Positions 25,498 through 55,569 of a stretch of DNA of 64,000 nt are shown piece after piece. Position numbers and translations under genes: made by a program. The stretch lies in the IMG/VR virus record IMGVR_UViG_3300045988_184160, positions 1-64,000 of that record; one strand, written 5' to 3'. Under the pieces are notes generated by a model that saw nothing but the letters and a program-made list of their open reading frames with translations, was not told the DNA's origin and searched no databases. The number at the start of each line of letters is the position of its first letter. The stretch's first letter is position 1. This stretch comes from a virus.

Positions 25498-26487
25498 ATG
25501 CGCACAAACAATAAAGAAAGGAAAACTGCAGTGGGTGAACCAACCCAGAAAATAAGTGCCCTAAACCCCCAGAGAATCATGGTTGCGGGCGACTGGCACG
25601 GCAACGAAACATACGCACTGGAAGCACTCAAGCACGCCCACAGTGAGGGTATTGAAGTCATTGTCCATGTCGGGGATTTCGGGGCGTGGCGGGATATTAG
25701 GTGCAGGTACGACAGAGCTGTGGGGATGATGGTCCCGTACCTGATCGGGGATCATGCGTCTAAGCCGTCTTGGGGTGACTACATGGGGGACACACCTATT
25801 CGGGGTAGTAGCAGGCCCGCGCATAAGCATCATATGAGTATGCTGTCCCTCAACAGTTTCCTTGAGGAAACAGGGATGGATCTGGTTATCATCCCAGGGA
25901 ACCATGAGGATTATGATGCGCTCTACAGTTTCCCCGTCGAGGAGGATGACGCTAACACGCAGAAGTTCCACCAGGCAACGGGGGAAGCAGCAGACAGCAT
26001 GCCCTACAGGTGGGGCCTGAGGCGTCCCCGCAGCAGAATATGGGTCATCCCAGCAGGGTACACGTGGAGTTGGGGCGGTAAAAAAATCATGGGGTTCGGG
26101 GGCGCGGTATCCGTCGATAAGCACTACCCGATCCGTGTACCCCACATAACATGGTTCCCCCAGGAAACCCCCACCGCCCTAGAACACGAATGGGCTGCAC
26201 GCGCAGGAAACCCAGTGGATGTGCTCATAACCCACGACTGCCCCGATAAGGGTATTGTCCTGCCACCTAACCCTGGGTTCCCCGAGGACGTTATCGCTGA
26301 GTCTAATACATTCAGGAGGAAACTAGACGATATAGTCACCGCAACCTCACCTAGGACGGTTTTCTATGGGCACCACCACGAGAACGTACAGGACAGGACA
26401 GTGAATGGGGTCAGGTACTATGGGCTGGGTGGTGACAGGCAGGGGGCGCAGAGTAACCTTCTGCTGCTCAATATTGAAGATTTATAG
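25498..26487 (+). CDS. calcineurin-like metallophosphoesterase
   Basis: IMVAGDWHGN (DxH), VHVGDFG (GD), IPGNHEDY (GNHE), ITHDCP, YGHHHEN (GHxH). Confidence 0.8.
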   Translation: MRTNNKERKTAVGEPTQKISALNPQRIMVAGDWHGNETYALEALKHAHSEGIEVIVHVGDFGAWRDIRCRYDRAVGMMVPYLIGDHASKPSWGDYMGDTPIRGSSRPAHKHHMSMLSLNSFLEETGMDLVIIPGNHEDYDALYSFPVEEDDANTQKFHQATGEAADSMPYRWGLRRPRSRIWVIPAGYTWSWGGKKIMGFGGAVSVDKHYPIRVPHITWFPQETPTALEHEWAARAGNPVDVLITHDCPDKGIVLPPNPGFPEDVIAESNTFRRKLDDIVTATSPRTVFYGHHHENVQDRTVNGVRYYGLGGDRQGAQSNLLLLNIEDL

Positions 26488-41659: not shown

Positions 41660-43265
41660 TCAAATAAGGCTGTATAACTTACGTTTGTAAGCCGTGTTTC
41701 CTTGTTTGTGTGCCGCCTTACTGGTCTCCGGGGTGCCGTGTGCACCCCGGTCCGCTAGTACGGTGGTCACCAAGTAAGTTGCTTGTACCCTAGCGGGGCG
41801 AGGAGGAAGAATCACCCCCTTAATATTGTGGTGGTTCTTCCTTTTTGGTGTTGCTGTGTGTTTAGTCCTGTCGCGACTGGGATATTTCAGAGAAGCCCGC
41901 GCGGGCGGGGTTTTCAAGGCAACCTGTGGTTGGAGTTTACGGTTCTTAGCACGGGTTTTCCTAGCTTTCTCAACCTTGGGCACAGCACGGGCAGCGATAT
42001 TCGCGGCTGCGTTCACATCCCTGTCCATTACACCATGCATCGGGCAGTCCGAGACTCTATGAGTAGGATGCGCAACACGAGAATCGCAAGCATGACACAC
42101 CTGTGAGGTGTTTGCCGCGTTTACCGATACAACCCACCCGCCGTTCTGTGACACATAATGGGTAAGCCAGTTAATGAGTTCACCGCGATTCCACCGCCCA
42201 TTCTGCATTGTATTAGTGACCCAGCTGAGGTCTTCCACCGCAACAACCGCGTTACCCCACAGGTGAGATAAATCAGCTATCTCCTGGGCGGCTATAATGG
42301 CTAGTTCCCGTTTCTTACGGGAACTAGCTCCACCGCGAAGCTAGTTCCCGTTTCTTACGGGAACTAGCTTCGCGGTGGAGCTGTGCTTCATCCAGTGCTG
42401 ACATCCGGGCTTGTCTCTGGTAGAGGAGACTGTCTGCTTTCTTTTTAAGGAATCGTACCTGTTTCTCAGAAGCTCTGACACTGTTCCAGAGTGAATGAAC
42501 ACGCTGAGCAAGCGTGCCTTGGTAGACTATCTGCCCTGTCTTAGTGTTGCGAACGACGACGGTGGCGTAGTTATTAATACCAGCATCCACACCGATAACG
42601 TAATCACCTGAGAACTGGACGACAGGGTTATCTGTTGCTACTGTGAAGATGAATACGGGCTGGTTATTCTCGACTTTCACCAAAGGTAGGGTTACTTTTC
42701 CCTCCGGGAAACGGGTGTTATCAAAGCTGAAAATCAGTCTGTACCGTTCACCTTGGATAACCATCTTAAGAACGATTTCCCCATCAGCAAAAGGGTTGTT
42801 CTCAATCACAGCATATTGCTTGTCTACGGCACCAAGGTTAATGTAATCCTCGCCATATGACGGCGCAGATGCATCCACAGTGCGTTTCCAGCCTTGAGAA
42901 ATATATTTAGATGAGGAGCCGTTTACGGCTTTGACACGCTCCTGCCATGAACGATACTCAGTAACTACGCGATGTCTAACTAGCCACTCTTTACGTGATT
43001 TGCCTGTCCTCCCAGTTGCTAGGAAGTCAGGCATGGTCACACCTGCCCGACGACCCGCAACGGCAGGTTGGGTGACGGTAACCTGGGACAGTTCAGACCC
43101 TAAGGTGGTGTCGTTACGAACCACGTAGGTGGCGTAAGCAGAGATACCCTGAACCTCAGAGACAAGCTTAGCTAAAACAGGGGTGCTATCCAGTAGTTCA
43201 CCGTTCAGATTCAGGACGTGAGAAGGGTGCGCCACGAAAGCCTTATAGGTCCGATTCTTAGCCAA
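41660..43265 (-). pseudogene. tnpB: tnpB disrupted by a 40-bp insertion/duplication (frameshift)
   Basis: Track ORFs 42324..43265 and 41660..42238 are the N- and C-terminal parts of one TnpB collinear with 17638..19191. Deleting 40 nt (42329-42368) restores ...LHREASSRKKRELAIIAAQEIADLSH...VAVEDLSWV. Confidence 0.85.
42300..42379. repeat. duplicated 29-nt palindrome plus an inverted 11-mer (composite hairpin) inside tnpB
   Basis: GCTAGTTCCCGtttcttaCGGGAACTAGC at 42300-42328 and 42340-42368. TCCACCGCGAA (42329-42339) and its reverse complement TTCGCGGTGGA (42369-42379). Confidence 0.9.
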
Positions 43266-43281
43266 CGCACCCCACCTTTCC

Positions 43282-43902
43282 TTACTTATCGTCTAGTTTC
43301 TTGGACACATCATCAATGAGTTTACGCTGCTGCTCCCAGCCCCTCAAACGGTAAAACTTGCCGCTAAAGGACGCGAGAAGCGCCATGAAATCCTCCATCA
43401 GAACCGCGTGGGGCTCACGGGTTTCAGGGCTATCCAGGACAGTCACCTCAGCACCATAAGCTGTAAGAAGCTCCGTCAAATAGGTGAAACCAAACCTAGT
43501 GAGCCTAGCCTGATTGGTCACAAATACCCTGACTTTACCCTCCTCAGACTTTACGTCCCTGATGAGAGCTTTAAGACCTTTACGTTTCTCGTTAAGACCA
43601 GAGGCTTTATCTTGAAAAACCTTGTCCGGCTCACCATAAGCCGCCTTCAGCTTCTCCAACTGAGTTTCAATGAGGACATCATCACCGTTAGAAGACCTTA
43701 CATAGAAAAAAGTCTTACCAGCATCAGGCTCAAGCCCCAGCATCTCCCTCTTGAAATCTTCAAGCTCAGACGGGTAGAAAACCTTTTCCCCCGTAATTGA
43801 TACATGGTAACCCAACTTACCGCGCTGACACCAGGCCCTAACAGTAGAAGGCGATATACCTAGAAACTTAGCAGCTTGCCCTACTCTTAGATAATCCTTC
43901 AA
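43282..43902 (-). CDS. tnpA: IS607-type serine recombinase transposase
   Basis: N-terminal MerR-like HTH LRVGQAAKFLGISPSTVRAWCQRGKL. Catalytic region FFYVRSSNGDD (R-x-S) and DKASGLNEKRKGLKALI. Confidence 0.8.
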   Translation of the reverse strand: MKDYLRVGQAAKFLGISPSTVRAWCQRGKLGYHVSITGEKVFYPSELEDFKREMLGLEPDAGKTFFYVRSSNGDDVLIETQLEKLKAAYGEPDKVFQDKASGLNEKRKGLKALIRDVKSEEGKVRVFVTNQARLTRFGFTYLTELLTAYGAEVTVLDSPETREPHAVLMEDFMALLASFSGKFYRLRGWEQQRKLIDDVSKKLDDK

Positions 43903-44049
43903 GACAACCCCCTGTATAAGTAATGCATTGCATACTATCTATATTATAATATATAAATATTACTAACAAAATCTACAACAGCTGTCCACCCTTATCGGGT
44001 GGCTTGTTCTGCTACTACTCAAGAACAATAGAATCGCACAGTGCAAATA

Positions 44050-44829
44050 ATGTCCACGATAGATAAATTCACACAAAAAACAGTTTTCAGGCCCGAGCAG
44101 GATTATTTCTACCGTCTACCCCCACCAGTTTTCTCTGATGATGTTGCGGTTTTCATGGGCGGTGTCCTGCAGCATAAGGACGACCTCACCGCTTATGACC
44201 GTGAGCTTCTTCGAGGGTACCAGCCGGATAGTGAGCCTGATGAGCCGGTTTTGACGATTGTGAAGGACGGTGACGGGTATTTGTGGTCTTTACTGAAAAT
44301 CTTGATGGTTCCGGTGTTGTCCACGCTACTGTTTCCCGCGTTGAGGTGGGTTGGGGTGGATTTGACTGTTGGTCCGCTTCTGTGGGTCCTGTCGCTGTGT
44401 TTCATCTGGGTTGTGACTGGGTTGTATGCTCTATGGTTTTTGCAGGGGTATACGCAGAAGCATCTTGCGTCGCTTTATGTTTATTCTGTGGCTGAGGATG
44501 CGGAGGTTATGGAGCGCCGGCGGTTCCTTATTGGTGAGTGTGAGCGGTTGAGTAAGGAAATTGAGGGGTTGGAGTATCAGCGGGATAAGGTTCTTGAGGT
44601 GCGTAAGGCTGAGTTGGAGGCTTTGCCTATTAGTGTGGTGACTGTTGGTTCTCGCGTGGTGAGTAGGGACGCGGCGGTTGCTGATGTTGTGGGTGAGATT
44701 GGGCGTGTTGGTGCTGAGATTGAGGTTTTGAGGGGTAGGTTGTCGGGGTTGCAGGATTCGTTGGCGTATTCTGCTTTGGCGTTTTTGTCGTCTGATGAGG
44801 GGAGCCGTAGAGCGTATCTTGCGAAGTGA
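44050..44829 (+). CDS. membrane protein with C-terminal coiled coil
   Basis: Track start is GTG 44041, with an ATG at 44050. TM helices (LLKILMVPVLSTLLFPAL, LLWVLSLCFIWVVTGLYALWFL), then a heptad-like region. Confidence 0.6.
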   Translation: MSTIDKFTQKTVFRPEQDYFYRLPPPVFSDDVAVFMGGVLQHKDDLTAYDRELLRGYQPDSEPDEPVLTIVKDGDGYLWSLLKILMVPVLSTLLFPALRWVGVDLTVGPLLWVLSLCFIWVVTGLYALWFLQGYTQKHLASLYVYSVAEDAEVMERRRFLIGECERLSKEIEGLEYQRDKVLEVRKAELEALPISVVTVGSRVVSRDAAVADVVGEIGRVGAEIEVLRGRLSGLQDSLAYSALAFLSSDEGSRRAYLAK

Positions 44830-44843
44830 GTTAGCGACCTTTT

Positions 44844-44885
44844 GGGGTGTCACCAGTGTTTATTCATGGTGGCACCCCTTATTTT
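44844..44885 (+). terminator. rho-independent terminator
   Basis: GGGGTGTCACCA / TGGTGGCACCCC (one G-U) followed by TTATTTT. Confidence 0.7.
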
Positions 44886-44979
44886 ATGTGCTGGCGACGA
44901 AAGCATTTGCAAAACAGGAAGAACCTAATATAGACTCTAGAATAAATGACAGGAAAACTAGGTAGGAGTCTATAAGCGC

Positions 44980-46074
44980 ATGAGTACATACTCAAAAATC
45001 AGGTGTATACGCCTCGAAAATTTTATGGGGTACCCCGACCAGATAATAGACTTCAAAAGTAAACCTATCCTGCACATCACGGGTGACAACGGCACCGGAA
45101 AATCAAGTGTCATACGCGCCCTAGAAGTTGCTTTCTGTGGGCGGCATAGTAGACACAAGAATAAGCTGATCCGCAAAGGGCAGACGAAAACAACTATCAC
45201 CCTCACCCTAGAAGACGGCACCCATGTAGAATACCTTCGTCAAGCAAGCGAACTAGCCCGCAAAGGCAGAACAGCCGCCTTGAAAGGTACCGAATCCTAC
45301 ACGATCTACCGCTACCTAAACAAGGATGGTGGGGTGGTGACCTTTGAGGGGGACACCACCCCAGACCCCACAGGTGTTACGAAGGAAATTCTGTTCACCA
45401 CACGGGACGGTGACACTCTCATCCCCGTAACGGGCATACCCCTAGAGGTAGAGAAAATCACGGGGTTCCTTTTCTCGTCACTCAACGACCAGGATGTTCC
45501 GTTGAATGTGGGCACAAGGAACGATCCCACGTTCTTGGTTGAAACCGCTGGTAGAGACAACTATAAGACAATGATGCTCCTCGGTGGGGGCGCTACCGTC
45601 ATAGAGGCCCAACAGAACATTCATGAGAGGATCCTCAAACAGAGGCGCGAAGATAAGGACGCGACCTCCAAACTTGAGTTTCTGTACGGGAACATCACCG
45701 AAGGCAGCATCCTATCAGATGAGGTGCCCAGCAAGCTCAACGACCTCATAACCAAGTTAGAGGCCCAGCAGGCGAACTATGAGCAGGTGAAAAGGTTAGA
45801 AGCCGCACTGAGGAAGATCGTCTCAATCAAGGTGCCGCCGAAACCACCGGAGCTGCCAGATATTGAGTCCCTGAAAATGGTTCTACGGCTCAAGAAGGCA
45901 GTGGAAACACTCATGCACTGGGAAGCGCAGGTGGAAGCCCGCACCCAGAACATGGTGGCAGAAAAACAGCGGATGCAAGGAATCCAGGACGCCATGAGAC
46001 AAGCAGGGGTACACGCCCTAGACTGCTGGAACTGCGGGGCGACAAACACTCTCAGCCTCACACAACACGCCTAG
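44980..46074 (+). CDS. SbcC/Rad50/SMC-type ATPase, N-terminal half only (Walker A head + coiled coil ending in CxxC)
   Basis: IRLENFMGYP...ILHITGDNGTGKSSVIRALEVAF. Long helical region. ...LDCWNCGATN lies 12 aa before the stop. No Walker B or signature motif in this ORF. Confidence 0.75.
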   Translation: MSTYSKIRCIRLENFMGYPDQIIDFKSKPILHITGDNGTGKSSVIRALEVAFCGRHSRHKNKLIRKGQTKTTITLTLEDGTHVEYLRQASELARKGRTAALKGTESYTIYRYLNKDGGVVTFEGDTTPDPTGVTKEILFTTRDGDTLIPVTGIPLEVEKITGFLFSSLNDQDVPLNVGTRNDPTFLVETAGRDNYKTMMLLGGGATVIEAQQNIHERILKQRREDKDATSKLEFLYGNITEGSILSDEVPSKLNDLITKLEAQQANYEQVKRLEAALRKIVSIKVPPKPPELPDIESLKMVLRLKKAVETLMHWEAQVEARTQNMVAEKQRMQGIQDAMRQAGVHALDCWNCGATNTLSLTQHA

Positions 46075-46095
46075 AAAAACATTGAGACAACGAGT

Positions 46096-47259
46096 ATGAA
46101 ACACAGAGAACATAAAACATTCAACGGGTCAGCCCTCATATTCGGTGACCTGCACCTATTCGTGAAACAAGACCACCGCCGCCCCACAGGGTTAAGCTCA
46201 CACAAAGACTACAACGCCAACAGTAGGCACAACATGCGGATGGTTCTGCGGCAGATCGAAGAGTTCCAAGGCGCGCACCCTGGGGAGCCTCTGATGGTGT
46301 TCTTCCTCGGGGACCTGTTCGGTGTGGATCAGCACGTGCTGACCGATAACACGCAGAGGTCAGAGGCAGCAGAGTTCCTGTCCACCATCAAGAACCTTAC
46401 GGGGCACCCCGCTCAGATGGTGTGGGGTAACCACGACCGCAGTTCACAGCAGGTCTCCGAGTCTGATCTTTTCATGCAGCTTGGGTTACTGGAAAACCCG
46501 TCGTGGGTTGATTTCACTGATGCTGACGGTAATATTCATTGGCGCTGGCACCTAGTGAACAATAACGACTATGAGCAGCCTATCCCCACGGTCAGGCACG
46601 GGGCACCGTCCGACATGGGCACCAAACCTGATGGTGGTAAGGCGCGCCGGAAAACCCTGCCTACGGTTGAGCATGTGGCGAACGGTGTGCTTGGGCATAA
46701 CCATTATTATGCGGGTGAGGATATGCGCCCGCATCCTGGGGGTGGCTGTATTGATTTGACGACTCTCGAATCTTTCAAGGATGTTATCGCTGTTATTTAT
46801 GGGGATACGCATGAGCCGTCTAGTGACGGGTTCTACCCGTACACCTTGAACTCTGCTGGTGCTGGGCATGAGCGTTACGCTATGGGGCTTGGTTCACCTG
46901 CACGTACTTCACGAGCACAGGATTATGAGGATGCTTATGTGATGTGGTTCTTGTCCCCTGCTGTGTCGGGTGGTGAACGGTTTGATTTTGAGGTTCACCG
47001 GTTTGGTGCGCGCCCTGCGTCTGAGGTTTTCCTTCCTGAGGAGAGGACTTTGCTTAGGGATGTGGGTGGCGTGGTTCGTGAGGCTACGGATGATGAGCGT
47101 CGGACGATGCGGGGTATTCTGCAGGGTTTGAACGGGAAAACGTTTGATGGGGAAAATATTTCTTCTGCGATAGACGAGGTTCTAGCCGACGACCTGCTAG
47201 CTGCGCGAGTAGCTAAAGCCCACATACAAGCAGTACGGGACACCCACGCCGCCGGATAA
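46096..47259 (+). CDS. SbcD/Mre11-like metallophosphoesterase nuclease
   Basis: ALIFGDLHLF (DxH), FFLGDLFG (GD), VWGNHDRS (GNHD), LGHNHYY, IYGDTHEP. Sits between the two ATPase halves. Confidence 0.7.
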   Translation: MKHREHKTFNGSALIFGDLHLFVKQDHRRPTGLSSHKDYNANSRHNMRMVLRQIEEFQGAHPGEPLMVFFLGDLFGVDQHVLTDNTQRSEAAEFLSTIKNLTGHPAQMVWGNHDRSSQQVSESDLFMQLGLLENPSWVDFTDADGNIHWRWHLVNNNDYEQPIPTVRHGAPSDMGTKPDGGKARRKTLPTVEHVANGVLGHNHYYAGEDMRPHPGGGCIDLTTLESFKDVIAVIYGDTHEPSSDGFYPYTLNSAGAGHERYAMGLGSPARTSRAQDYEDAYVMWFLSPAVSGGERFDFEVHRFGARPASEVFLPEERTLLRDVGGVVREATDDERRTMRGILQGLNGKTFDGENISSAIDEVLADDLLAARVAKAHIQAVRDTHAAG

Positions 47260-47310
47260 ACCAATAAGTTTTACATAAAAACCTTTTGAACGGAAGAAGA
47301 AGAAGAGAAA

Positions 47311-48015
47311 ATGACCCCAGGAAACACAGGACAGGACATCCTGAAAGAATACGCCGCCACCCAAGCGAAGCTCAAAGAAATCGAACGTGAACGCGACCTC
47401 GCGGCACGGGACTTGGAACGAGCTAAGGCTGAGCTGCAGCAGATCGACCAGGAAATGAGGGATGCTAAAAACTACTCCCCCCTCGATGACATGCAGGAAA
47501 GAGGCGGGGCAGAGGCTTACCTAGCTTTCGTTATAAACTGGGTATCCCGCATGGAAGAAGCAACCCGCGAATCCATCACAGAAGCTAACCAGATCCTCGA
47601 AGCCTACAGGAGCGGTAACCTGACCGCGCTGAACGAGCTGCTGGGGGTTGAGGCGTCTGGCGAGATACCTGTTGAAGGACCGAGCGTTGAGGTTGCTGAC
47701 GGCACCGTACCAGCTGTGAAGTTTGAGGATGTTGCACCTGCTGGGTACAGTGCACCGGAAGAGCCTGTTTCCCCTGCCGTGGTTGCGGTGGAGGAGCCAG
47801 TAGCAGCGAAGCCGGAGCCCAGCCAAGCCGCGAGCGCACCCGCCCTCAACTGGGGAAACAGCAAAAACGACAGCACCAGCAACAACCATAACGGCACCCA
47901 AGACCCTTGGGAAAACTCAAATAACAACGGGTGGGGGTCTAACCTCTTTAATGACGGGGAAATGGGTGACCCAAGCGGATTCTTCTCCGAAGGGAATGAG
48001 CAGAACCATGAATAA
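47311..48015 (+). CDS. coiled-coil protein with disordered Asn/Gly/acidic C-terminus
   Basis: N-terminal KLKEIERERDLAARDLERAKAELQQIDQEMRD. The stop overlaps the next start (ATGAATAA). Confidence 0.65.
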   Translation: MTPGNTGQDILKEYAATQAKLKEIERERDLAARDLERAKAELQQIDQEMRDAKNYSPLDDMQERGGAEAYLAFVINWVSRMEEATRESITEANQILEAYRSGNLTALNELLGVEASGEIPVEGPSVEVADGTVPAVKFEDVAPAGYSAPEEPVSPAVVAVEEPVAAKPEPSQAASAPALNWGNSKNDSTSNNHNGTQDPWENSNNNGWGSNLFNDGEMGDPSGFFSEGNEQNHE

Positions 48016-48934
48016 CACACTCAGCAGGGAACTAACAACCACCCTCAACAACCTACGCGCCACCCAAGCAGCATACGCCGAGAAACTAAACACCCACCAC
48101 ACCAACATCAGCACCTACAAGCAAATCCAACGGGACAGGGCATACAAGCGTGAAGTGACCCGTGTACTCAGTGCAGCGAAGCAGGGGCTTCACAAGGTGC
48201 AGGAGCAGACGGGGGTTGAGGTACGGGAGTTCGTGACCGATGTTATCAATAAAGCTATCCAGAACCTCTTCCCCAAAGAGAACCTGCGCATCTCCATTGT
48301 TGCCAACGACGAGAAACCAACCAAAACCAGGGCACGCAAGACCAGTAGCACACCCGCGATGGTTTACAAGCGACTAGATCTTGAGGTTGCTGGCACTGAC
48401 GGTGAGCCTATGAATGTCGCTATCCAGGTTGGTTCTGGGTTGCAGGACCTTATTTCTTTCCTGTACCGTGTCGCCTTGATTTCTGTGTCGTCGGGCAGGA
48501 AGCTTCTTGTGAGTGACGAGCTGCTGCACGGTTTGGCGGTTGATCGTTTCAAAGATATTGTGGGTATCCTGGATTTGTTCACTGAGGAAGGTTTTCAGTT
48601 CATCATCATTGAGCACGGGCTGGACCCGTCTCTGTGGGGTGGTAACGCCCGTGTCCTTGAGACGGTCAGGTCTAATGGGTGCTCAAGTTTGGTTGATGTG
48701 ACTGGGGAGTATTCGGGTGGCAACAGGGTTCTTGAAGAGCTCAAAGAATCTGTTGAGAATGCAGTGAAACAGGCTAAGGAGGCGCATGAAGCTAACCCCG
48801 TTGAAGATTCTGAGCCACTAGAAACTATAACCACCACAACTAAACCCGATAAGCAAGCAAAAACAAAGGCAGATAAAGAAAACCCTGCTCAAGAAGAATT
48901 AAACATGGCACCACCCAACATGTTTCAAGACTAA
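48008..48934 (+). CDS. SbcC/Rad50/SMC-type ATPase, C-terminal half only (signature-like motif, Walker B, H-loop)
   Basis: ATG at 48008 (track start is 47951). About 60-aa helical region, then QVGSGLQDLISFLYRVAL (signature-like), KLLVSDELLHG (Walker B/D-loop), FQFIIIEHG (H-loop). No Walker A. Confidence 0.7.
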   Translation: MNNTLSRELTTTLNNLRATQAAYAEKLNTHHTNISTYKQIQRDRAYKREVTRVLSAAKQGLHKVQEQTGVEVREFVTDVINKAIQNLFPKENLRISIVANDEKPTKTRARKTSSTPAMVYKRLDLEVAGTDGEPMNVAIQVGSGLQDLISFLYRVALISVSSGRKLLVSDELLHGLAVDRFKDIVGILDLFTEEGFQFIIIEHGLDPSLWGGNARVLETVRSNGCSSLVDVTGEYSGGNRVLEELKESVENAVKQAKEAHEANPVEDSEPLETITTTTKPDKQAKTKADKENPAQEELNMAPPNMFQD

Positions 48935-48938
48935 AAAA

Positions 48939-48993
48939 TATTCGGTTCACCAGTAAAAGCGGAAGTTATACTACTAGTGAACCGAGTATTTTT
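48939..48993 (+). terminator. rho-independent terminator
   Basis: TATTCGGTTCAC / GTGAACCGAGTA (one G-U) followed by T5. Confidence 0.65.
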
Positions 48994-49026
48994 ATGCCCA
49001 AAAAACAGGGAAGGGAAGGACACAGA

Positions 49027-51009
49027 ATGCCGCAACTCAAAGACACCCTAAAAAAGGCGCTGGGAGGTGAGCTCCTAGAAGGTGAAGATGGGATGAACTA
49101 CGGGGCTTACTCCCCTAACGGTGTGCGAGCAATAATTATTCTGAAAGACCTCATTTTCATTGACTACCACAGGGGGTACCCTGGGAACCACACTATCAAA
49201 GAAGTAGCGGGATGGTCACCAGCTGCTTGGCGTCTCAACCCTTCCCAAGTGATGCTTGAGCTACCCAAAGGGAACGCGCTACCTAATGGTGCAGCGTATG
49301 ATCCAGTGGAGCGTTACTACTACCAGAACACTGGTGAAGAGAAAATGATTGTTGCCGCACCCCAGTCGGACGGTGTACTATGCGATTTTCTGGACAGGGA
49401 ACCTGTGGGTTCATCCTATTCTAAGCTGCTGAGGCTCTTGACAGATTACAAGAATTTCTTCACTCTCGAAGAAATACTAGTTGACGAAAACCTAGGCATC
49501 AACATCAATGATTATAAGCGCCCCGAGGGGAGCAGGCTACGCAGGATAGGTTACGTTTCTCGGGACGCCTACAATTCTGGTATCGACAATGAAACGCTGG
49601 GGAACATGCTCACTCAATACCGCAAAGAATCCGAGCAAGTTACCCCTTATGAGTCACTGTTCTCAGATTTTTTCACTGATAAGTCATGGGAAGCGAGTAA
49701 CCCCCGCGCCACGGATCAGCAGGTTTACAATACGGAGGGTGAAGGTGAGTGGTTCAGGAAACATATTTTAGCCCCTAAACACTACTCGTCCGATATTGTT
49801 GGTGGTAAGCTATACAAGCATTTCCTGGAAGCCACCAAAACCCTGAGTGCAAAGCACGGTGGGTCTAATGCATCAGCTGACGTGTCCCCTGAGCAGGTGC
49901 AGGTCTTGGAGACGTATGCCTCCGCTATCCAGAAGGACACCAAGGTTTACGGTGAGGTTGAAGAGCTATTCACCGTGCTTCAACGAGACTCCCAAAACAA
50001 CGGTGAGTCAGAGGTCAAGCACCTGTACGCCACCCATGTCCTCAACGTCCTAACCGGTGGGAACCACGGGCGACTGTCCCCTAAATACGCTAACACACCC
50101 ATACCGATGCTCAGGTGGGCTGTCGAACAATGCTTAGGCAGGGAATACTATGCCACCCAAAACCAGGGAAACAACGACACCGCGAAACTGCAAGAAAAAT
50201 ACGGTGCCCTAGATCAAACCTACAGCCAGTTAGGTTTATACAACCCAGCCGACGCTGATAAAAATGGTGCTAGCTTCCCCAGCCTCAACGAAAACCCCGC
50301 GATCCTCAAAGCAGAAAAAGAGAAAACCGGTATCCTGCACACCGTGATCTTTGAAGCACTCTACGGGGGTATTATCCTGATCGTTGAAGACGCACGGCAG
50401 AAAGGGGTGCAGGTCCAAGCAACAGACATCATAGCGGAAGCCCACCCGTCCCAGTTCGTCCCAGCATACGAGTCGTTCCTGAAACGAATCAGCAACGTGT
50501 GGGACGACCCCACCAACCTAATCATCAACCAGCTCAACGAGGCACTGCGGGGTATCATCACCCCAGCGGAAGCACGAGAAGTTGCGGGTATCCTGAAACG
50601 TCTACCTGAAGATGTCCAAGTATACCTGAAAGACCGCGTATCCATAGAAATGGATGGCAATAAACTCCCTTACATTGACAGGTTGGAACCCTTTAAGAAC
50701 CATGAAACATGGGCTACTTTCAAAGAATATAACTACGGTGAGACAACACCTAAAAACCCTGCAACGCAGGGCATCCCACCAGCTGAAACACTCGCTTACT
50801 TATCCCCTGGGATGATTCTCGCTAGGGCGGCAATGAAAACATCCCCCAGTGAGGTATACAACAAGTCCAATATTGGGCGCTGGGTGGATGAGTCAGCGGT
50901 TGGGAGCGAAGAGAAAACCAAGCGGATCCGCAAGATAGGGGAACTTATAAATAAAGGAATCCAGCTACGCCAAGGAAACTATGCAGCCAACACAGGGGAG
51001 GGGCAGTAA
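49027..51009 (+). CDS. hypothetical protein (660 aa)
   Basis: ATG at 49027 with GGGAAGGGAAGGA RBS (the track start at 48994 abuts the terminator). No motif recognised. Confidence 0.7.
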   Translation: MPQLKDTLKKALGGELLEGEDGMNYGAYSPNGVRAIIILKDLIFIDYHRGYPGNHTIKEVAGWSPAAWRLNPSQVMLELPKGNALPNGAAYDPVERYYYQNTGEEKMIVAAPQSDGVLCDFLDREPVGSSYSKLLRLLTDYKNFFTLEEILVDENLGININDYKRPEGSRLRRIGYVSRDAYNSGIDNETLGNMLTQYRKESEQVTPYESLFSDFFTDKSWEASNPRATDQQVYNTEGEGEWFRKHILAPKHYSSDIVGGKLYKHFLEATKTLSAKHGGSNASADVSPEQVQVLETYASAIQKDTKVYGEVEELFTVLQRDSQNNGESEVKHLYATHVLNVLTGGNHGRLSPKYANTPIPMLRWAVEQCLGREYYATQNQGNNDTAKLQEKYGALDQTYSQLGLYNPADADKNGASFPSLNENPAILKAEKEKTGILHTVIFEALYGGIILIVEDARQKGVQVQATDIIAEAHPSQFVPAYESFLKRISNVWDDPTNLIINQLNEALRGIITPAEAREVAGILKRLPEDVQVYLKDRVSIEMDGNKLPYIDRLEPFKNHETWATFKEYNYGETTPKNPATQGIPPAETLAYLSPGMILARAAMKTSPSEVYNKSNIGRWVDESAVGSEEKTKRIRKIGELINKGIQLRQGNYAANTGEGQ

Positions 51010-51015
51010 ACAGGC

Positions 51016-54000
51016 ATGAGTGAAAACAACACAAACGAGAACCTGCGGAAACTAGGTGTGAACCTGATCCAGCAGGCGCTACAAGAAGACAAGCTAAAGG
51101 ATCCCAACAACACTGCGCTCTCCCCGAACAATGTGCGTGGCATAGAGTTCCTTGGTGCTGACGGCATCAAAATCGTTGAGCACGTGAGCGGCGGATACTC
51201 AAAATCAATAAGCTCAGCAATGGACGATTTTGACTTGAACGCAACCAACGCACTCACCAAAGAGGACATACGAAGCATCTTCGGTAGCAGGAAATACGGC
51301 AACCTGGAATACGTGCACGTCGCCGACAACATGCAGATCATGGGTGCCACAGGGAAACCAGCTGCAGCAGGTATAGCGGCAGTACTGAAAACCATCACCA
51401 GCAGCAACGGCGCGCCTTGGTACGGGCGGCTCCACCAAATAAACGGTGAAGAAATCCCCGACACCGCAGGGTGGGAGAACCACAAGTCCCTAGAACCTGA
51501 AGCATACGCCTTCGACGCGAAAAGCCAGCTCGGGAAAAAACTCAACATAGAAACCACACCAGCACCCGAAACTGAGACTACCGTACCCGAAGCAGAGAAA
51601 CCAGAACAAGAAAAAACACCCCAAGAACTCGAAGTAGAACAACGAGTCGCAAAGATCAATAAGCATTTCAAAACCCAGATTAATGGGGCGATCAAGTTTC
51701 TTCTTCAAAAATATAAGATGATGTTCGCGTCAGGGTTTGATTTGGTCCAGCCCGCAGGCGTCCCGTTCCCAGATGATACGGGAACGGTCATTCTGCGCAC
51801 TATTAAAGACGGGAAGCTCACCTATGCAGGTGATGATCCTGTTGCAAAAGGATACTTCCGTGAAATAGAGAAACTATATGAGAATATCACTGACGCATCA
51901 GGTATCAAAGTAGCAAAAGCACGTAGTCATCATGAAATCATTAACCTAGCCATTCAAGGGGTAGACGTTGATCCAAACACTAAACTGGGAATCCCAGGTA
52001 GAAACCTTCGTGTCACACTCCCCTACAAAATGCTGGAATATGCATACGGTACACAAGGGGCTATCTCACAAACCCGCACACTGACAGATGAAGAGAGGAT
52101 AAAATACACCCCCTCAAGCATTAATGCTTGGGAAGAATACAGTACCCATGTAATCAGGAAAGACCTAAATACTCTTTTCTCATCCCTAGGTTACACTGCA
52201 CTTGTAAACGAAAAGATGCAGGATGTCTATGATGATAACCGCCGCAGTACAAGGAAAGAAAAAGATAAAGCTAGCAAGATTATTTCCACACATATTGAAA
52301 CCCTGAAATGTATGTTAGCTAGCACAATTATCATCCCAATCTTCCAGCAGATAGACAACGAAACTATCGCTGTTAAAGCACGTGTGCTTGATAACTACAC
52401 GGACTGGTCTAAGATCCGACAAGATCAGATTCGGCGAGCTATAAAAGACACGGATGTTGAGCTTGATAACAGTGACGTGAAATCGTATCCACCTGTGTAC
52501 GATGGGGAGTCTTTTAGTGAGTACCGTATAGACCTGAATACAACGCTTGCTAATGCTGAACCAGTGTTTGCTTATAAGGCTCTGCAGCTGCTCCTCGCGA
52601 AGGGGGAGAAGCTGACGTTTGAGAACGCCCCTTTAGGTGTTGATACAGACGGGAATATTGTCCGAAACGGAACACATTTCAGTTTAAGCACCTACCTTTC
52701 CCATCTTGTGCTTGCAGCTTCCCGTTCAGGTAAAGGCGTGTGGACTTCCAATATTCTTGCTGCCTGCATCATCTCTGGACGCCCAATATTTTACCTAGAT
52801 AATAAACCAGATATTGGTGATAAAGTAGCTGACGCATCAAAAATCAACGGATCGCCAACTGCTTTCGTTGTAAACGGGGGTAATCTAAACCCGCAAAGCC
52901 GTGACTCTGGGACACATTTCTTTGGGAACTGGAATGATGCTAACAGCTGGATTAACACCGATCATATCCCTAGCTATTTAAGAAGCCTCAACATAGATAC
53001 GAGGACTTACAACGGTACTGTGGGAACGCTCGTATATCTCCGTGGCATGCTTCTTTTCCTTGGAATCATTGCTGCCCGTATCGTCTACGGGCAGGGTGAA
53101 GTATATGAGAAGCTTGGCGGTAAAACAGGCATCGTTGGCGTGTTCGATGAGATGGCCATTTTCTCTAAAGAGTTCCTTGCCCTATTGAAAGAACTCGGGA
53201 AGAAATACCCAAACCTCAAATATTGGCAGGCATACCAGCAAGATCCGAACATTGAAGGCACCAAACCCCCAGCTGAGAGCTATTGGTCTTACCTGCTAGT
53301 GAAAGCCATTAGTGAAACAGCGACTAGAATATTCAATCTGAATAACGCGGGTGGACAGAACGGAGAGAATAGGGTCAGTGATATATTCATCATCTCACAG
53401 GACTTTTTTGCCCTATCAGATGGTGGAAATAGTACGCCTGGGGAAAGGGCTGAGATTGCTAGGCGTCCTGGGCAAATTTCCAGCGTCAGCATGAACGCTA
53501 CTGACAAAAAAGGGAACACGGGTGCGTTGATCCCAATTCATCAAGACATTATTTTTAATATGCTAATGGCTCTTGGAGGAGACGCCTACCTTGGTGTGCA
53601 TAATGAGGTGAACCATCTTGGGCACAAGAATCCAAACGGGAAAACTAGTAACTACATTAATACACAAGCTCGATACTTTGGACGAATAGCACCATATCCT
53701 GTTGATGGGGTCAGGGAAACTAGGGCTGCTATCAGCTCAGAGGATCAGAAAATGACGCTCTATAAGCCTGGGCTTCTAGTAGCAGATTCTAGTGTGGAAA
53801 ATGGCGAAGGCTATAACGCGAAATACACTTATTTCTTAGATAACCTCTCTTCCTATGTTAAAGCTGCTGGCGCGGATCTGCCAGATATTATTAGCCGGAA
53901 TGAAGATCCTATTAGGAAAGGTACTTTCCACCGTGCTACTGCATTGAGTGAGTACCTAGAAATGGCGGGTGTCAGCAGGGAAGAAACAGCTAAAAGACTG

Positions 54001-55569
54001 TCAAAATCTGGTAACATCGCCCAGTTTGTTGTTGAAGCCTTAGGTTACAAGGGTACTTGGCGTGATTTCCTCCTAGATTTCCGTCCACAATGGATTTTTA
54101 GTGCGGAAGACATTATAAATGCGCTCGACTCAAACGATGCGATAACCCTACCTGTCTCATACACTGTTGATGGTGCAACCACCAAAGCAGAACTTATTAA
54201 GGAGATCAGGACTCTTCACCCTGACTTTTTTGGTGACGAGAACAGTGGTTTCGGTTCATCTGCTTCTGGTGAGGGGTCTGAGGTAGATGGTGGTATGGTG
54301 TATATCGCTGGTTATGGGATGTCCCAGGATGGTGTGAAAGTTGGGGGTTCCACTAATCCTGTGGGTATTGAGGATACCGAGCTCTCCGAGGACATGGAGG
54401 AGCCCGAAAATAGCAACTACGGCGATAATGATATAGAAGACGTATCATACACCAAACCAGACCATGAACCAGAGGAAGACACGGCAGAAGAACCAGAGGT
54501 TCATGCTGAAACCATACCGGAAGAGCCGATAGTGGAAGATATTGCCGCACCCATCTACGAGAACGCCAAGAACAGCATCAACGCCGATCCTGACGAGTGG
54601 GAAACCGCCAACCAACCCAGCGAGGAATACACGGAGACCGCGCCTCTGGAACCTGTACCCCAGTATTCGGACGGCTCAACAACCGACGAGTACGGGGACA
54701 GGGTTTTTGGTGCATCCACTCGCGCCCCAGAAGGGTATGCTGGCTCTGATACTGATTACCGCGAACGGGCTCAGCAGTCCCAGTCTTTCAAGAATCCGCC
54801 TAAGCACTCTAAAGGGTTTGACCTGCCGCCTATGGGGTTCGACCCGTACAGCATTGAGTCTTTCGACAAAGTGTATGACACGGTTACTGACGCTATTATT
54901 CGTGCCGCACTGGGTAAGAATAGTCAGGGTATTATCGCCTTGTCCATTAAAGATGGGGATGTGATCGTGAACGGGCTCCAAGTGCAGGTGAACACTCAAC
55001 CTGGTGACCTGATGTCGATGCAGGATTCTTTACGGAACCAGCTCACGACTGGGAAAATTGGTGGGCTTATCAACTGGAAGAAGCTCATTACATACATGCG
55101 CTCGGTTGAGGCTTTGGAGTTCTCCGATCTTCCTGATGCTAGGGCGGCTGCTAAAGCAATGCTCAAGGATAAGGATATTTCGGTTGAGCATTTCTTTACC
55201 CGCGTGAGGTCTCTGCAGCTTTTGACGCTGGTTACGAAGACTTACACGAGGCAGGATTATCGGGAGCAGCTTGAGTCTACACCGCAGTTCTATAACCGGA
55301 CCGCTTTTGAGAGGGTTGAGAAGAAGTTCCGGGAGGGTACACTCTTTGGTGCTTCGAAGAGTTTCGCTTATGCGCGTGATCGTTTCAGGCGTAAGGGCGG
55401 AATAAATAAGGTTGTTGGTGTGGGTGCTGGTGCTTTTGGCGCTTTACTGAGGTCTGTTGCTGCGGCTTCTAGGCTGTCGAAAGGGACTGCTAATTTGGGT
55501 GCGCGTATTGCTGTCGCCAATAGGATGGATCGGAGGTCTAGGAGTTATTCTGAGGGGCGTGATATTTAG
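51016..55569 (+). CDS. giant protein (1517 aa) with FtsK/HerA-like P-loop NTPase segment
   Basis: HLVLAASRSGKGVWTSNILAACIISGRPIFYLDNKPD parallels the FtsK/TraB-type Walker A region (..GxTGSGKS..N..I.S.....P.....IDPK) but has GKG. Walker B-like GIVGVFDEMAIF. Acidic low-complexity stretch around aa 1115-1190. Confidence 0.6.
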   Translation: MSENNTNENLRKLGVNLIQQALQEDKLKDPNNTALSPNNVRGIEFLGADGIKIVEHVSGGYSKSISSAMDDFDLNATNALTKEDIRSIFGSRKYGNLEYVHVADNMQIMGATGKPAAAGIAAVLKTITSSNGAPWYGRLHQINGEEIPDTAGWENHKSLEPEAYAFDAKSQLGKKLNIETTPAPETETTVPEAEKPEQEKTPQELEVEQRVAKINKHFKTQINGAIKFLLQKYKMMFASGFDLVQPAGVPFPDDTGTVILRTIKDGKLTYAGDDPVAKGYFREIEKLYENITDASGIKVAKARSHHEIINLAIQGVDVDPNTKLGIPGRNLRVTLPYKMLEYAYGTQGAISQTRTLTDEERIKYTPSSINAWEEYSTHVIRKDLNTLFSSLGYTALVNEKMQDVYDDNRRSTRKEKDKASKIISTHIETLKCMLASTIIIPIFQQIDNETIAVKARVLDNYTDWSKIRQDQIRRAIKDTDVELDNSDVKSYPPVYDGESFSEYRIDLNTTLANAEPVFAYKALQLLLAKGEKLTFENAPLGVDTDGNIVRNGTHFSLSTYLSHLVLAASRSGKGVWTSNILAACIISGRPIFYLDNKPDIGDKVADASKINGSPTAFVVNGGNLNPQSRDSGTHFFGNWNDANSWINTDHIPSYLRSLNIDTRTYNGTVGTLVYLRGMLLFLGIIAARIVYGQGEVYEKLGGKTGIVGVFDEMAIFSKEFLALLKELGKKYPNLKYWQAYQQDPNIEGTKPPAESYWSYLLVKAISETATRIFNLNNAGGQNGENRVSDIFIISQDFFALSDGGNSTPGERAEIARRPGQISSVSMNATDKKGNTGALIPIHQDIIFNMLMALGGDAYLGVHNEVNHLGHKNPNGKTSNYINTQARYFGRIAPYPVDGVRETRAAISSEDQKMTLYKPGLLVADSSVENGEGYNAKYTYFLDNLSSYVKAAGADLPDIISRNEDPIRKGTFHRATALSEYLEMAGVSREETAKRLSKSGNIAQFVVEALGYKGTWRDFLLDFRPQWIFSAEDIINALDSNDAITLPVSYTVDGATTKAELIKEIRTLHPDFFGDENSGFGSSASGEGSEVDGGMVYIAGYGMSQDGVKVGGSTNPVGIEDTELSEDMEEPENSNYGDNDIEDVSYTKPDHEPEEDTAEEPEVHAETIPEEPIVEDIAAPIYENAKNSINADPDEWETANQPSEEYTETAPLEPVPQYSDGSTTDEYGDRVFGASTRAPEGYAGSDTDYRERAQQSQSFKNPPKHSKGFDLPPMGFDPYSIESFDKVYDTVTDAIIRAALGKNSQGIIALSIKDGDVIVNGLQVQVNTQPGDLMSMQDSLRNQLTTGKIGGLINWKKLITYMRSVEALEFSDLPDARAAAKAMLKDKDISVEHFFTRVRSLQLLTLVTKTYTRQDYREQLESTPQFYNRTAFERVEKKFREGTLFGASKSFAYARDRFRRKGGINKVVGVGAGAFGALLRSVAAASRLSKGTANLGARIAVANRMDRRSRSYSEGRDI

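What the first reader, a model, noticed from the sequence alone, without database searches (positions are those of the whole stretch)
44980..48934. Rad50/SbcC-type ATPase split at the zinc-hook position into two genes bracketing the Mre11/SbcD-type nuclease
44980..46074 carries only the N-terminal Walker A head and a coiled coil, and ends ~12 aa after a CxxC (LDCWNCG), the position of the Rad50/SbcC zinc hook. 48008..48934 carries only a short coiled coil plus a signature-like motif, Walker B (KLLVSDE) and H-loop. Between them lie an SbcD/Mre11-like phosphoesterase and a separate coiled-coil protein whose stop overlaps the start of the C-terminal half. The operon has terminators at 44844 and 48939 on either side. 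A four-subunit, hook-split SbcCD-like machine is not an arrangement I know from characterised systems. It could act in recombination or end processing for the element, or as an SMC-type sensor-nuclease.
Basis: partly seen in the sequence, partly recalled or inferred. Interest (0 to 1): 0.65.

Follow-up and report, generated by a model that had tools for sequence, protein, structure and literature searches.

The report
Two-gene Rad50/SbcC-like ATPase in huge phages
A large uncultured gut phage encodes its DNA-end-processing nuclease complex with the ATPase motor in two separate genes, on either side of the nuclease gene. Hundreds of related phages do the same, so this is a stable natural variant of a universal repair machine and not a broken gene.

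Summary
Four co-oriented genes lie between two strong terminator hairpins:
- A (44980-46074): Rad50-type Walker A lobe, a helical arm, and CWNCG 12 residues before the stop.
- B (46096-47259): phosphoesterase with all the metal-binding motifs. Its family profile matches SbcD/Mre11 best.
- C (47311-48015): small helical protein with a disordered tail. Its stop overlaps the start of D.
- D (48008-48934): N-terminal helix of about 85 residues, then a signature-like motif, Walker B and H-loop.

A and D match non-overlapping N- and C-terminal parts of the same ABC-ATPase models. The split is not recent:
- 25 fetched loci keep A, B and D as separate genes in that order.
- All 92 distant D relatives are 346 aa or shorter.
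- The 120 best A relatives are 381-426 aa.
- No fused form was found.

"Split at the zinc hook" is only partly supported. CxxCG is universal near A's C-terminus. However, 72 of 120 relatives add HxH ten residues later, which makes a possibly self-contained zinc site. D's helix is also much shorter than A's arm.

Most likely function: a phage SbcCD/gp46-gp47-type recombination nuclease whose ATPase head assembles in trans. I found no published description of this arrangement.

The parts
44844..44878 (+). Upstream terminator-like hairpin (12+2 bp stem, then TTATTTT). It closes the preceding gene (44041-44829).
   Evidence: -24.7 kcal/mol, z -4.4; sequence
44980..46074 (+). Gene A: N-terminal half of the ATPase (364 aa). 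It holds the Rad50-type Walker A lobe, a helical segment of about 95 residues, one degenerate Pro-initiated repeat, a helix of about 49 residues, then CWNCG and a 12-residue tail.
45082..45105 (+). Walker A / P-loop GDNGTGKS (A residues 35-42). G35, G40, K41 and S42 are invariant in the family.
46024..46035 (+). CWNC (A residues 349-352), followed by G353. The CxxCG motif is conserved in every A-family protein examined.
46096..47259 (+). Gene B: SbcD/Mre11-like metallophosphoesterase (387 aa). Invariant residues are D18, H20, G72, D73, G111, N112, H113, D114, H201, G236 and H239. It has a beta-rich middle part and conserved C-terminal helices.
47311..48015 (+). Gene C: accessory protein (234 aa). 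It has two N-terminal helices of about 45 residues each, a conserved SG(D/N)...LLG motif, then an acidic and Pro-rich disordered tail with an aromatic tip. Its stop overlaps the start of D.
48008..48934 (+). Gene D: C-terminal half of the ATPase (308 aa). It has an N-terminal helix of about 85 residues, then the ABC C-lobe, then a low-complexity tail ending in PPNMFQD.
48425..48445 (+). Signature-like motif QVGSGLQ (D residues 140-146). G142 is invariant and G144 nearly invariant in the family. The motif is degenerate compared with LSGGQ/E.
48500..48520 (+). Walker B KLLVSDE (D residues 165-171). D170 and E171 are invariant. It is followed by LLHGLA in the D-loop position.
48602..48619 (+). 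H-loop IIIEHG (D residues 199-204). E202 is nearly invariant. H203 is replaced by Tyr in many distant relatives.
48934..48993 (+). Downstream terminator-like hairpin (long interrupted stem, then TTTTTAT) directly after the stop of D.
   Evidence: -26.0 kcal/mol, z -8.4; sequence

Best explanation
The four genes form one operon. It encodes the phage's Mre11-Rad50 / SbcCD-type ATP-dependent DNA-end and hairpin nuclease, the counterpart of T4 gp46/gp47.

Shown:
- A supplies the Walker A lobe and D supplies the signature, Walker B and H-loop lobe.
- B is an SbcD/Mre11-like two-metal nuclease.
- C is a small helical protein with a disordered tail.
- The split is ancient and conserved.

Inferred:
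- The helical segment of about 95 residues that leaves A's lobe pairs antiparallel with D's N-terminal helix of about 70-85 residues. This gives a short coiled coil that holds the two lobes together as one head.
- Two A:D heads sandwich two ATP molecules, each between the Walker A of one head and the GxG signature of the other, and clamp DNA.
- A B dimer is docked through its conserved C-terminal helices at the base of the coiled coil. It cuts the DNA that the heads present.
- The rest of A (about 30-residue repeats, a helix of about 45 residues, and the CxxCG zinc site) projects beyond D. It either dimerises like a Rad50 hook or is a zinc knuckle that docks a partner.
- C binds this distal part or recruits other factors through its tail.

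Likely role: processing DNA ends and secondary structures for recombination-dependent replication and genome maturation.
For: A lobe:
- Pfam AAA_23 4e-14, with SMC_N and AAA_15 also hit.
- PHROG SbcC-like 1e-12.
- PDB Rad50 with the single sequence at 2e-4, and with the family profile at 5e-8, ahead of SMC1 at 3e-5.
- NCBIfam Rad50 3e-13.

D lobe:
- Walker B to H-loop aligns to UvrA, SMC3 and ABC C-lobes.
- 11 of 25 family members hit Pfam AAA_21, best 7.6e-7.
- hhalign places D 121-195 on E. coli SbcC 930-1008 and D 165-211 on T4 gp46 499-545.
- All 50 best Foldseek PDB hits of the (poor) model are SMC/Rad50-class heads. They include the separately expressed C-terminal chains 1f2u_B (TM 0.57) and 3kta_B, and E. 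coli SbcC. The significant viral hits (E <= 0.05) are mostly Rad50/SbcC/gp46-like.

Complementarity: A and D-family proteins hit non-overlapping N- and C-terminal parts of the same models, namely mad3, Old, AriA, PbeC and NsnB.

B:
- All the metallophosphoesterase motifs are invariant.
- The family profile's top PDB hits are T. maritima SbcD/Mre11 at 9e-6 and S. aureus SbcD.
- E. coli SbcD by hhalign at 5e-5.
- Relative's B: Mre11_Halo 3e-8 and PHROG SbcD-like 1.4e-7.
- Foldseek includes SbcD and Mre11.

Conservation:
- Same four genes at 48-65% identity.
- The three core genes A, B and D are co-linear in 25 fetched loci, and C is detected in most of them. A and B often overlap by 1-26 nt.
- The D-profile search of 1.84 billion representatives gave 92 hits, all 346 aa or shorter.
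- The A-profile search gave at least 357 clusters. The top 120 are all 381-426 aa.
- 93% nucleotide identity to the nearest relative, with all ORFs intact.

Helix lengths: the first Pro break in A falls 88-99 residues after the GSEN motif in the lineages outside the window's own group (82 in one locus; the window's group has an extra Pro at 55). D's helix runs 69-81 residues to its invariant Asn.

Context: DnaN clamp, DnaQ-like exonuclease, thymidylate synthase, UvrD-like helicase and RecJ-like nuclease in the same window.

Background: SbcCD is near-universal in jumbo phages (PMC7824862), and SbcC was shown to be essential in SPN3US (PMC5105663).
Against: - No physical evidence that A and D associate.
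- D's sequence matches are to generic or OLD/AAA_21-type ABC C-lobes, not specifically to Rad50.
- The D model has mean pLDDT 42 and the B model 59, so the fold matches are only indicative.
- The window's own B has no Pfam or PHROG hit.
- The arm is asymmetric and partly built of repeats, unlike any characterised Rad50.
- The zinc site may be a self-contained C2H2 site in most relatives.
- I could not check whether the rest of the roughly 243 kb genome also carries a canonical full-length sbcC.
Confidence: 0.7

Rival explanations
1. Same complex, but the CxxCG end of A is not a Rad50-type intermolecular hook. It is a small self-contained zinc knuckle (C2H2 or C2C2) at the tip of a non-canonical arm. 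It would dock A onto DNA or onto C, D or another partner. The gene break is then not 'at the hook', and the two arms are not bridged through shared zinc.
For: - 72 of 120 A-family representatives have CxxC-x10-HxH, and 5 have CxxC...CGC. Only 9 have no further His or Cys.
- The motif is 8-19 residues from the C-terminus, with no coiled coil returning after it.
- CPxCG is also a general zinc-knuckle signature (my own knowledge).
Against: - The only universally conserved ligands are the two Cys.
- The window protein has one His after the motif, and several lineages have none. In those proteins a four-ligand site needs a second chain, as in a Rad50 hook.
- CP(G/N/S)CG preceded by a long helix and a basic Gly-containing turn resembles Rad50 hooks (my own knowledge of the P. 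furiosus sequence).
Confidence: 0.45
2. The module is a conflict system, not a core recombination nuclease. It would be a Lamassu- or OLD-like SMC-type sensor coupled to a nuclease effector, used by the phage against competing elements or host DNA.
For: - A's best PADLOC hit is LmuB at 3.8e-14, over residues 6-341.
- D-family proteins hit the Old, AriA and mad3 models and AAA_21.
Against: - Only the N-half of LmuB is matched, and no LmuA- or LmuC-like partner is present.
- B and D of the window have no PADLOC hit.
- The module has fixed synteny with the same downstream genes at the 52% level and recurs in distant lineages. It sits in a replication region. That is the behaviour of a core gene set, not of a variable defence island.
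- Best hits outside PADLOC are Rad50 and SbcD/Mre11.
Confidence: 0.1
3. The split is a recent disruption, a pseudogene, or an assembly or frameshift artefact of a once single sbcC gene.
For: None found. In the window's own lineage only, A's TAG stop and B's ATG are in the same frame, 7 codons apart.
Against: - Two complete genes (B and C) lie between the halves.
- The same organisation is seen in independent assemblies from many samples, at identities from 20-27% to 97%.
- No fused relative was found in exhaustive searches.
- All three stop codons are in normal use: TAA 23, TAG 13, TGA 6.
- The A/B frames differ in other lineages.
Confidence: 0.01

Closest known systems
Phage T4 gp46/gp47 and E. 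coli SbcCD (bacterial/phage Mre11-Rad50 complexes)
   Same: - A Rad50-type Walker A lobe.
- An ABC C-lobe with signature, Walker B and H-loop.
- An adjacent, often translationally coupled SbcD/Mre11-type two-metal nuclease with conserved C-terminal helices.
- CxxCG at the far end of the arm.
- Location among replication and recombination genes.
   Different: - The ATPase is two polypeptides, not one (SbcC is 1048 aa, gp46 is 560 aa).
- Gene order is N-half, nuclease, accessory protein, then C-half.
- The descending arm is only about 70-85 residues.
- The ascending arm carries about 30-residue repeats and ends at the zinc motif.
- There is an extra subunit, C.
- The signature is degenerate (GxG), and the H-loop His is often Tyr in relatives.
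Engineered two-chain Rad50 and SMC head constructs (P. furiosus Rad50cd 1F2T/1F2U; Pyrococcus SMC 3KTA/1XEW)
   Same: The N- and C-terminal head segments, made as separate chains, assemble into a functional ABC head. D's model matches the C-terminal chains best when the score is normalised by target length (1f2u_B TM 0.57, 3kta_B 0.47). A matches the N-terminal chains 1f2t_A and 1ii8_A.
   Different: Those are laboratory truncations that lack the arm and the hook. Here the two-chain state is natural, keeps part of the arm, and is conserved across a phage clade.
Split core enzymes of jumbo phages (RNA polymerase beta/beta', minimal Pol III alpha in two proteins; PMC7824862)
   Same: A universal multi-domain enzyme is encoded as separate polypeptides in large phage genomes, sometimes with other genes in between.
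   Different: That survey treats SbcC as a single ABC ATPase and does not report a split form.
Lamassu LmuB and OLD/AriA/PtuA-class ABC ATPases
   Same: SMC/Rad50-derived ABC ATPases with short helical insertions, paired with nucleases. They give the best PADLOC hits for A (LmuB) and for D-family members (Old, AriA, mad3).
   Different: They are single-chain ATPases in defence islands, with different effectors (Cap4/Mrr-type, TOPRIM, HNH). None has an SbcD/Mre11-type partner or a terminal CxxCG (my own knowledge for the effectors; for the hits).

Membership tests
Rad50/SbcC (ATPase of the Mre11-Rad50 complex) | N-terminal Walker A lobe with Rad50/SbcC-type sequence | tested here: met
   AAA_23 4e-14. 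The family profile's top PDB hits are P. furiosus Rad50 at 5e-8. NCBIfam Rad50 3e-13. PHROG SbcC-like 1e-12.
Rad50/SbcC (ATPase of the Mre11-Rad50 complex) | C-terminal lobe with signature motif, Walker B, D-loop and H-loop | tested here: met
   All are present in D (QVGSGLQ, KLLVSDE, IIIEHG). D170 and E171 are invariant. They align to the equivalent positions of SbcC and gp46. The signature is degenerate.
Rad50/SbcC (ATPase of the Mre11-Rad50 complex) | C-lobe specifically closer to Rad50/SbcC than to other ABC ATPases | tested here: inconclusive
   Sequence hits are generic: UvrA, AAA_21, Old, mad3. SbcC_Walker_B was hit by only 1 of 25 members, at 0.054. Foldseek gives only SMC/Rad50-class heads, but the model has pLDDT 42.
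Rad50/SbcC (ATPase of the Mre11-Rad50 complex) | Both lobes in one polypeptide, joined by a long antiparallel intramolecular coiled coil | tested here: not met
   They are two genes separated by B and C. No fused relative among 92 D-family or 120 A-family proteins or in 25 loci. A's arm is 154-247 residues; D's helix is about 70-85.
Rad50/SbcC (ATPase of the Mre11-Rad50 complex) | Zinc hook: CxxC at the apex between the two coiled-coil strands, with zinc shared between two protomers | tested here: inconclusive
   CxxCG is found in all 25 + 120 family members. However, it is C-terminal, and 72 of 120 add HxH at +10/+12. Zinc stoichiometry cannot be tested here.
Rad50/SbcC (ATPase of the Mre11-Rad50 complex) | Genetically linked Mre11/SbcD nuclease partner | tested here: met
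   B lies directly downstream of A and often overlaps it in relatives. See the Mre11/SbcD rows.
Rad50/SbcC (ATPase of the Mre11-Rad50 complex) | ATP-dependent stimulation of DNA end or hairpin cleavage | not testable with these tools
   Needs biochemistry.
Mre11/SbcD nuclease | Calcineurin-like phosphoesterase motifs (DxH, GD, GNHD/E, H, GxH) | tested here: met
   D18, H20, G72, D73, G111, N112, H113, D114, H201, G236 and H239 are invariant across 19 diverse family members.
Mre11/SbcD nuclease | Closer to SbcD/Mre11 than to other metallophosphoesterases | tested here: met
   The family profile's top PDB hits are T. maritima SbcD/Mre11 at 9e-6 and S. aureus SbcD at 6e-4. Mre11_Halo 3e-8 and PHROG SbcD-like 1.4e-7 for the L007 orthologue. 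The window protein alone gives no Pfam hit. Foldseek does not separate SbcD from LpxH or 5'-nucleotidase.
Mre11/SbcD nuclease | Capping domain and C-terminal helix-loop-helix that binds the Rad50 coiled coil | tested here: inconclusive
   The model has a beta-rich region at 246-330 and helices at 332-344, 355-363 and 367-385, and the C-terminal helices are conserved in the family. Mean pLDDT is only 59, and no complex model was possible.
Lamassu (LmuA/LmuB/LmuC) | Full-length LmuB SMC-like ATPase with LmuA effector and LmuC, in a defence context | tested here: not met
   Only A's N-half matches an LmuB model. B, C and D match no Lamassu model. The context is a conserved replication module.

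The most novel reading that the evidence does not exclude
A large clade of uncultured huge phages has replaced the single-chain Rad50/SbcC with a multi-piece machine. These phages have contigs up to about 590 kb and are binned with Clostridia MAGs.
- The ATPase head is assembled from two polypeptides.
- The returning strand of the arm is largely dispensed with.
- The ascending strand has become a repeat-containing stalk tipped by a CxxCG(-HxH) zinc module.
- At least one dedicated extra subunit, C, has been added. In most lineages there is also a fifth gene, possibly clamp-like.

This would be a natural experiment showing that covalent continuity from hook to head is not needed for Mre11-Rad50 function.
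Probability: 0.55. Interest if true: 0.72.

Novelty: new variant of a known kind. Interest (0 to 1): 0.62.

Why it matters
How the Rad50 coiled coil and zinc hook communicate with the ATPase head and control Mre11 is a long-standing question. So far it has been studied with engineered truncations and hook mutants.

This family is naturally evolved and conserved. Its head is split between two chains, only the ascending strand reaches the zinc motif, and the returning strand is cut to about 70-85 residues. That gives a ready-made system to test three things:
- which arm functions are essential;
- whether zinc-mediated bridging survives without a closed coiled-coil loop;
- what an extra small subunit contributes.

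It also corrects annotation. A is at present labelled as an incomplete 'SbcCD ATPase subunit' or AAA protein. D, B and C are labelled hypothetical, and structurally similar 215-219 aa entries in the viral structure library are labelled 'Chromosome partition protein' or uncharacterised. Surveys would therefore score these phages as lacking an intact SbcCD.

Tried and rejected
- DNA searches of the 4.1 kb region against GenBank phages and PLSDB plasmids found nothing.
- tblastn searches against GenBank phages all found nothing, so no cultured relative could be used. The queries were D, two distant D-family proteins, a relative's B and the downstream 1517-aa protein.
The D model is poor (pLDDT 42) and the B model mediocre (pLDDT 59).
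- Single-sequence and close-family profile searches of B against PDB sequences gave nothing. Only the 19-member profile reached SbcD/Mre11.
- hhalign of the D family against single SbcC and gp46 sequences aligned the right motifs, but with low probability.
- The guess that the roughly 385-aa gene between C and D in relatives is a sliding clamp got no Pfam hit and no hhalign support against the window's DnaN. It got only weak PDB hits to beta clamps, E 0.014-0.16.
- Stop-codon recoding, with TAG read-through fusing A to B, was considered and rejected.
- Literature searches for a split Rad50/SbcC found nothing. The ABC-ATPase classification paper of Krishnan et al. 2020 is not held in the library and could not be checked.
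- The first genome-contig scan, with the D alignment, failed for lack of a conserved stretch. The A alignment worked.

Full report
**What the window is.** The region lies in a large phage-like genome.
- The nearest relative is IMG/VR contig UViG_3300045988_183278 (243 kb). Its A and D proteins are 96% and 93% identical to the window's, and the DNA is 93% identical and colinear over 43989-49500.
- The window also encodes a DnaN-type clamp, a DnaQ-like exonuclease, thymidylate synthase, a tail-lysozyme domain protein, a UvrD-like helicase, a RecJ-like nuclease and a ParM/actin-like protein.
- No cultured phage or plasmid matches at DNA or protein level.
- All three stop codons are in normal use.

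- A (44980-46074, 364 aa) has the P-loop GDNGTGKS. It has no signature, Walker B or H-loop. It ends 12 residues after CWNC.
- B (46096-47259, 387 aa) carries FGDLH, LGDLFG, WGNHD, LGHNH and YGDTH.
- C (47311-48015, 234 aa) is helical for about 110 residues and low-complexity after that.
- D starts at 48008 (308 aa, the length of all its relatives). It carries QVGSGLQ, KLLVSDE and IIIEHG, and has no P-loop.
- C's stop overlaps D's start by 8 nt.
- Two strong hairpins, each followed by a T-run, bracket the four genes (z -4.4 and -8.4). The simple scanner missed them because of its loop limit.

**What each part is.**
- A is closest to Rad50/SbcC.
  - Pfam AAA_23 4e-14.
  - PHROG SbcC-like 1e-12.
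  - PDB Rad50 at 2e-4 with the single sequence, and 5e-8 with a 16-member family profile, ahead of SMC1.
  - NCBIfam Rad50 3e-13.
- The window's B has no Pfam or PHROG hit, and close-family profiles found nothing in the PDB.
  - In a 19-member family alignment all the metal ligands are invariant.
  - That alignment's profile hits T. maritima SbcD/Mre11 first (9e-6), then S. aureus SbcD and archaeal Mre11s.
  - It aligns to E. coli SbcD at E 5e-5.
  - The L007 orthologue hits Mre11_Halo at 3e-8 and PHROG SbcD-like at 1.4e-7.
  - The AlphaFold model (pLDDT 59, pTM 0.62) matches metallophosphoesterases including SbcD and Mre11, but does not separate them from LpxH or 5'-nucleotidase.
- D is an ABC C-lobe.
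  - Its Walker B to H-loop stretch aligns to UvrA, SMC3 and ABC transporters.
  - 11 of 25 family members hit Pfam AAA_21, best 7.6e-7.
  - hhalign puts its signature and Walker B on SbcC 930-1008 and gp46 499-545.
  - The D model is poor (pLDDT 42). Even so, all 50 best PDB matches are SMC/Rad50-class heads. These include the separately expressed C-terminal chains 1f2u_B and 3kta_B, and E. coli SbcC. The significant BFVD matches (E <= 0.05) are mostly viral Rad50/SbcC/gp46-like proteins, plus a few proteins of 215-219 aa.
- A and the D family are complementary. They hit non-overlapping N- and C-terminal parts of the same PADLOC models: mad3, Old, AriA, PbeC and NsnB.

**The split is old and general.**
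- A relative whose four proteins are 48-65% identical has the same four genes, at 364, 388, 227 and 306 aa.
- An exhaustive profile search with D returned 92 proteins at E <= 1e-3. All are 346 aa or shorter, and each aligns from near its own N-terminus.
- A profile search with A returned at least 357 clusters. The best 120 are all 381-426 aa.
- In 25 fetched loci from viral and metagenome collections, A, B and D lie on one strand in that order, 1.8-5.9 kb apart. They are never fused. In one locus C comes before B.
- A and B often overlap by 1-26 nt. In some lineages insertions push the genes more than 8 kb apart.
- In reference genomes the family occurs only in MAG bins, mainly of Clostridia: Lachnospiraceae, Oscillospiraceae and Mogibacterium.
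- Recent disruption, pseudogenisation and misassembly are therefore excluded.

**The hook reading needs a caveat.**
- CxxCG lies 8-22 residues from the C-terminus in all 25 locus-derived and all 120 database A proteins. The commonest form is CP(G/N/S)CG. The two Cys are the only universally conserved potential ligands.
- However, 72 of 120 have His at +10 and +12 (…CPGCGQIFDPEQQHVH), and 5 have a CGC. That is a complete four-ligand set within one chain. Nine have no further His or Cys, and the window has one His.
- The arm is not a canonical Rad50 coiled coil.
  - After the conserved G(S/R)(E/D)N motif there is a helical segment of about 95 residues. Its first Pro break falls at residue 88-99 in the lineages outside the window's own group (82 in one locus); the window's group has an extra Pro at 55.
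  - Next come one to four tandem repeats of about 30 residues (…PE..ϕD..RLS…). Only one degenerate copy survives in the window.
  - Then come a helix of about 45 residues and the zinc motif.
- D's N-terminal helix is only 69-81 residues up to its invariant Asn.
- The proximal A segment and D's helix are therefore matched in length, and I infer that they pair. Everything distal belongs to A alone.
- Whether the tip dimerises like a hook or is a docking knuckle cannot be decided with these tools.

**C and other neighbours.**
- C-family proteins share two N-terminal helices, an SG(D/N)…LLG motif, and an acidic/Pro-rich tail with an aromatic tip. I found no family match for them.
- In most distant lineages a conserved gene of about 385 aa lies between C and D. 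Its only PDB hits are beta sliding clamps, at E 0.014-0.16. It has no Pfam hit and no homologue in the window.

**Mechanism I commit to (confidence 0.7).** This is a phage SbcCD/gp46-gp47-type nuclease whose ABC head is assembled in trans from A and D through a short coiled coil.
- B is the nuclease, docked by its C-terminal helices.
- C is an accessory subunit.
- A's distal stalk with its zinc module mediates bridging or docking.
- Shown: domain identities, complementarity, conservation, operon structure.
- Inferred: A:D pairing, stoichiometry, and the roles of C and of the zinc tip.
- A Lamassu/OLD-like conflict role is less likely (0.1). A does hit an LmuB model. Against that, the module is syntenic, sits in the core replication region, and lacks Lamassu partners.

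**Novelty.**
- SbcCD is described as near-universal in jumbo phages, and as a single ABC ATPase (PMC7824862; PMC5105663).
- Searches for a split Rad50/SbcC found no paper. One key classification paper could not be read.
- I rate this a new variant of a known kind.

Noticed in passing
window 41660-43902 (minus strand): An IS607-like unit: a serine recombinase (43282-43902; Resolvase + HTH_17) next to a TnpB-like gene that is broken into two ORFs (42324-43265 and 41660-42238, the latter with the Cas12f1-like TNB domain). It sits just upstream of the operon. The closest relative (L001) has only about 110 nt between the flanking genes there, and DNA colinearity resumes at 43989.
   Followed up: partly
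window 17620-19191 (+) and 21297-22826 (-): Two more full-length TnpB/Cas12f-like ORFs (523 and 509 aa, Cas12f1-like_TNB domain). This phage region therefore carries at least three TnpB copies.
   Followed up: no
window 25498-26487 (+); L007 552-1352; L055 15188-16213: A second, ordinary metallophosphoesterase (Pfam Metallophos 1e-11; phrog_1649 2e-34), distinct from B. Its orthologue lies directly upstream of gene A in L007 and a few kb downstream of A in L055.
   Followed up: partly
L007 4829-5971, L025 5339-6505 and about 30 other loci; no homologue in the window: In most distant relatives a conserved gene of about 385 aa sits between C and D. It has no Pfam hit. Its only PDB sequence hits are beta sliding clamps (E 0.014-0.16, N-terminal 84 residues). 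The window lineage lacks it at this site and has a recognisable DnaN-like gene at 9429-10703 instead.
   Followed up: partly
A-family proteins, e.g. L041 3109-4389, L021 2324-3556, L053 916-2118; window A residues about 284-300: Tandem repeats of about 30 residues (ϕPEϕ..ϕD..RLS.ϕ..ϕ…), 1-4 copies, lie between the proximal helix and the last helix of the A arm. In the window protein they are reduced to one degenerate copy (VPPKPPELPDIESL…). No known repeat family was identified.
   Followed up: partly
window 46072-46098: A's TAG stop and B's ATG are in the same reading frame, 7 codons apart, so read-through would fuse A to B. This is true only in the window's close relatives. Other lineages have different frames or overlaps, and TAG is a normal stop here (13 of 42 genes).
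   Followed up: yes
window 48994-51009 and 51016-55569 (+): Two large genes (671 and 1517 aa) with no confident family match (only two sub-threshold hits for the 671-aa one) are syntenic downstream of D in the 52% relative. Sequences that look similar by eye lie downstream of D in more distant loci. The 1517-aa protein contains a P-loop-like AASRSGKG and a hhhhDE stretch (seen by eye), which suggests a large translocase-type ATPase.
   Followed up: no
C-terminal tails of C (window 47311-48015) and D (48008-48934) and their relatives: Both proteins end in acidic or low-complexity tails tipped by short hydrophobic or aromatic motifs (C: …GSNLFN…GFFSEG; D: …APPNMFQD, relatives …LPTNLFV, …RVISL). 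These look like short linear docking motifs such as clamp- or SSB-type tails. This is untested.
   Followed up: no
BFVD hits A0A6J7XLB5 (215 aa), A0A8S5ME05 (219 aa), Q0E500 (153 aa, ascovirus '16.8 kDa Rad50-like protein'): Short stand-alone viral proteins resemble the D model. The two phage entries are uncharacterised or auto-named 'Chromosome partition protein'. The ascovirus entry hints that Rad50-like half-proteins may also exist in eukaryotic viruses.
   Followed up: no
L057-L060 (genome contigs): A-family genes occur in reference genomes only on contigs binned into MAGs. The four full-length matches are in Lachnospiraceae (2), Oscillospiraceae and Mogibacterium bins, which is a weak hint that the hosts are Clostridia. 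Two short, partial matches are in Porphyromonas and Neomarinimicrobiota bins.
   Followed up: no
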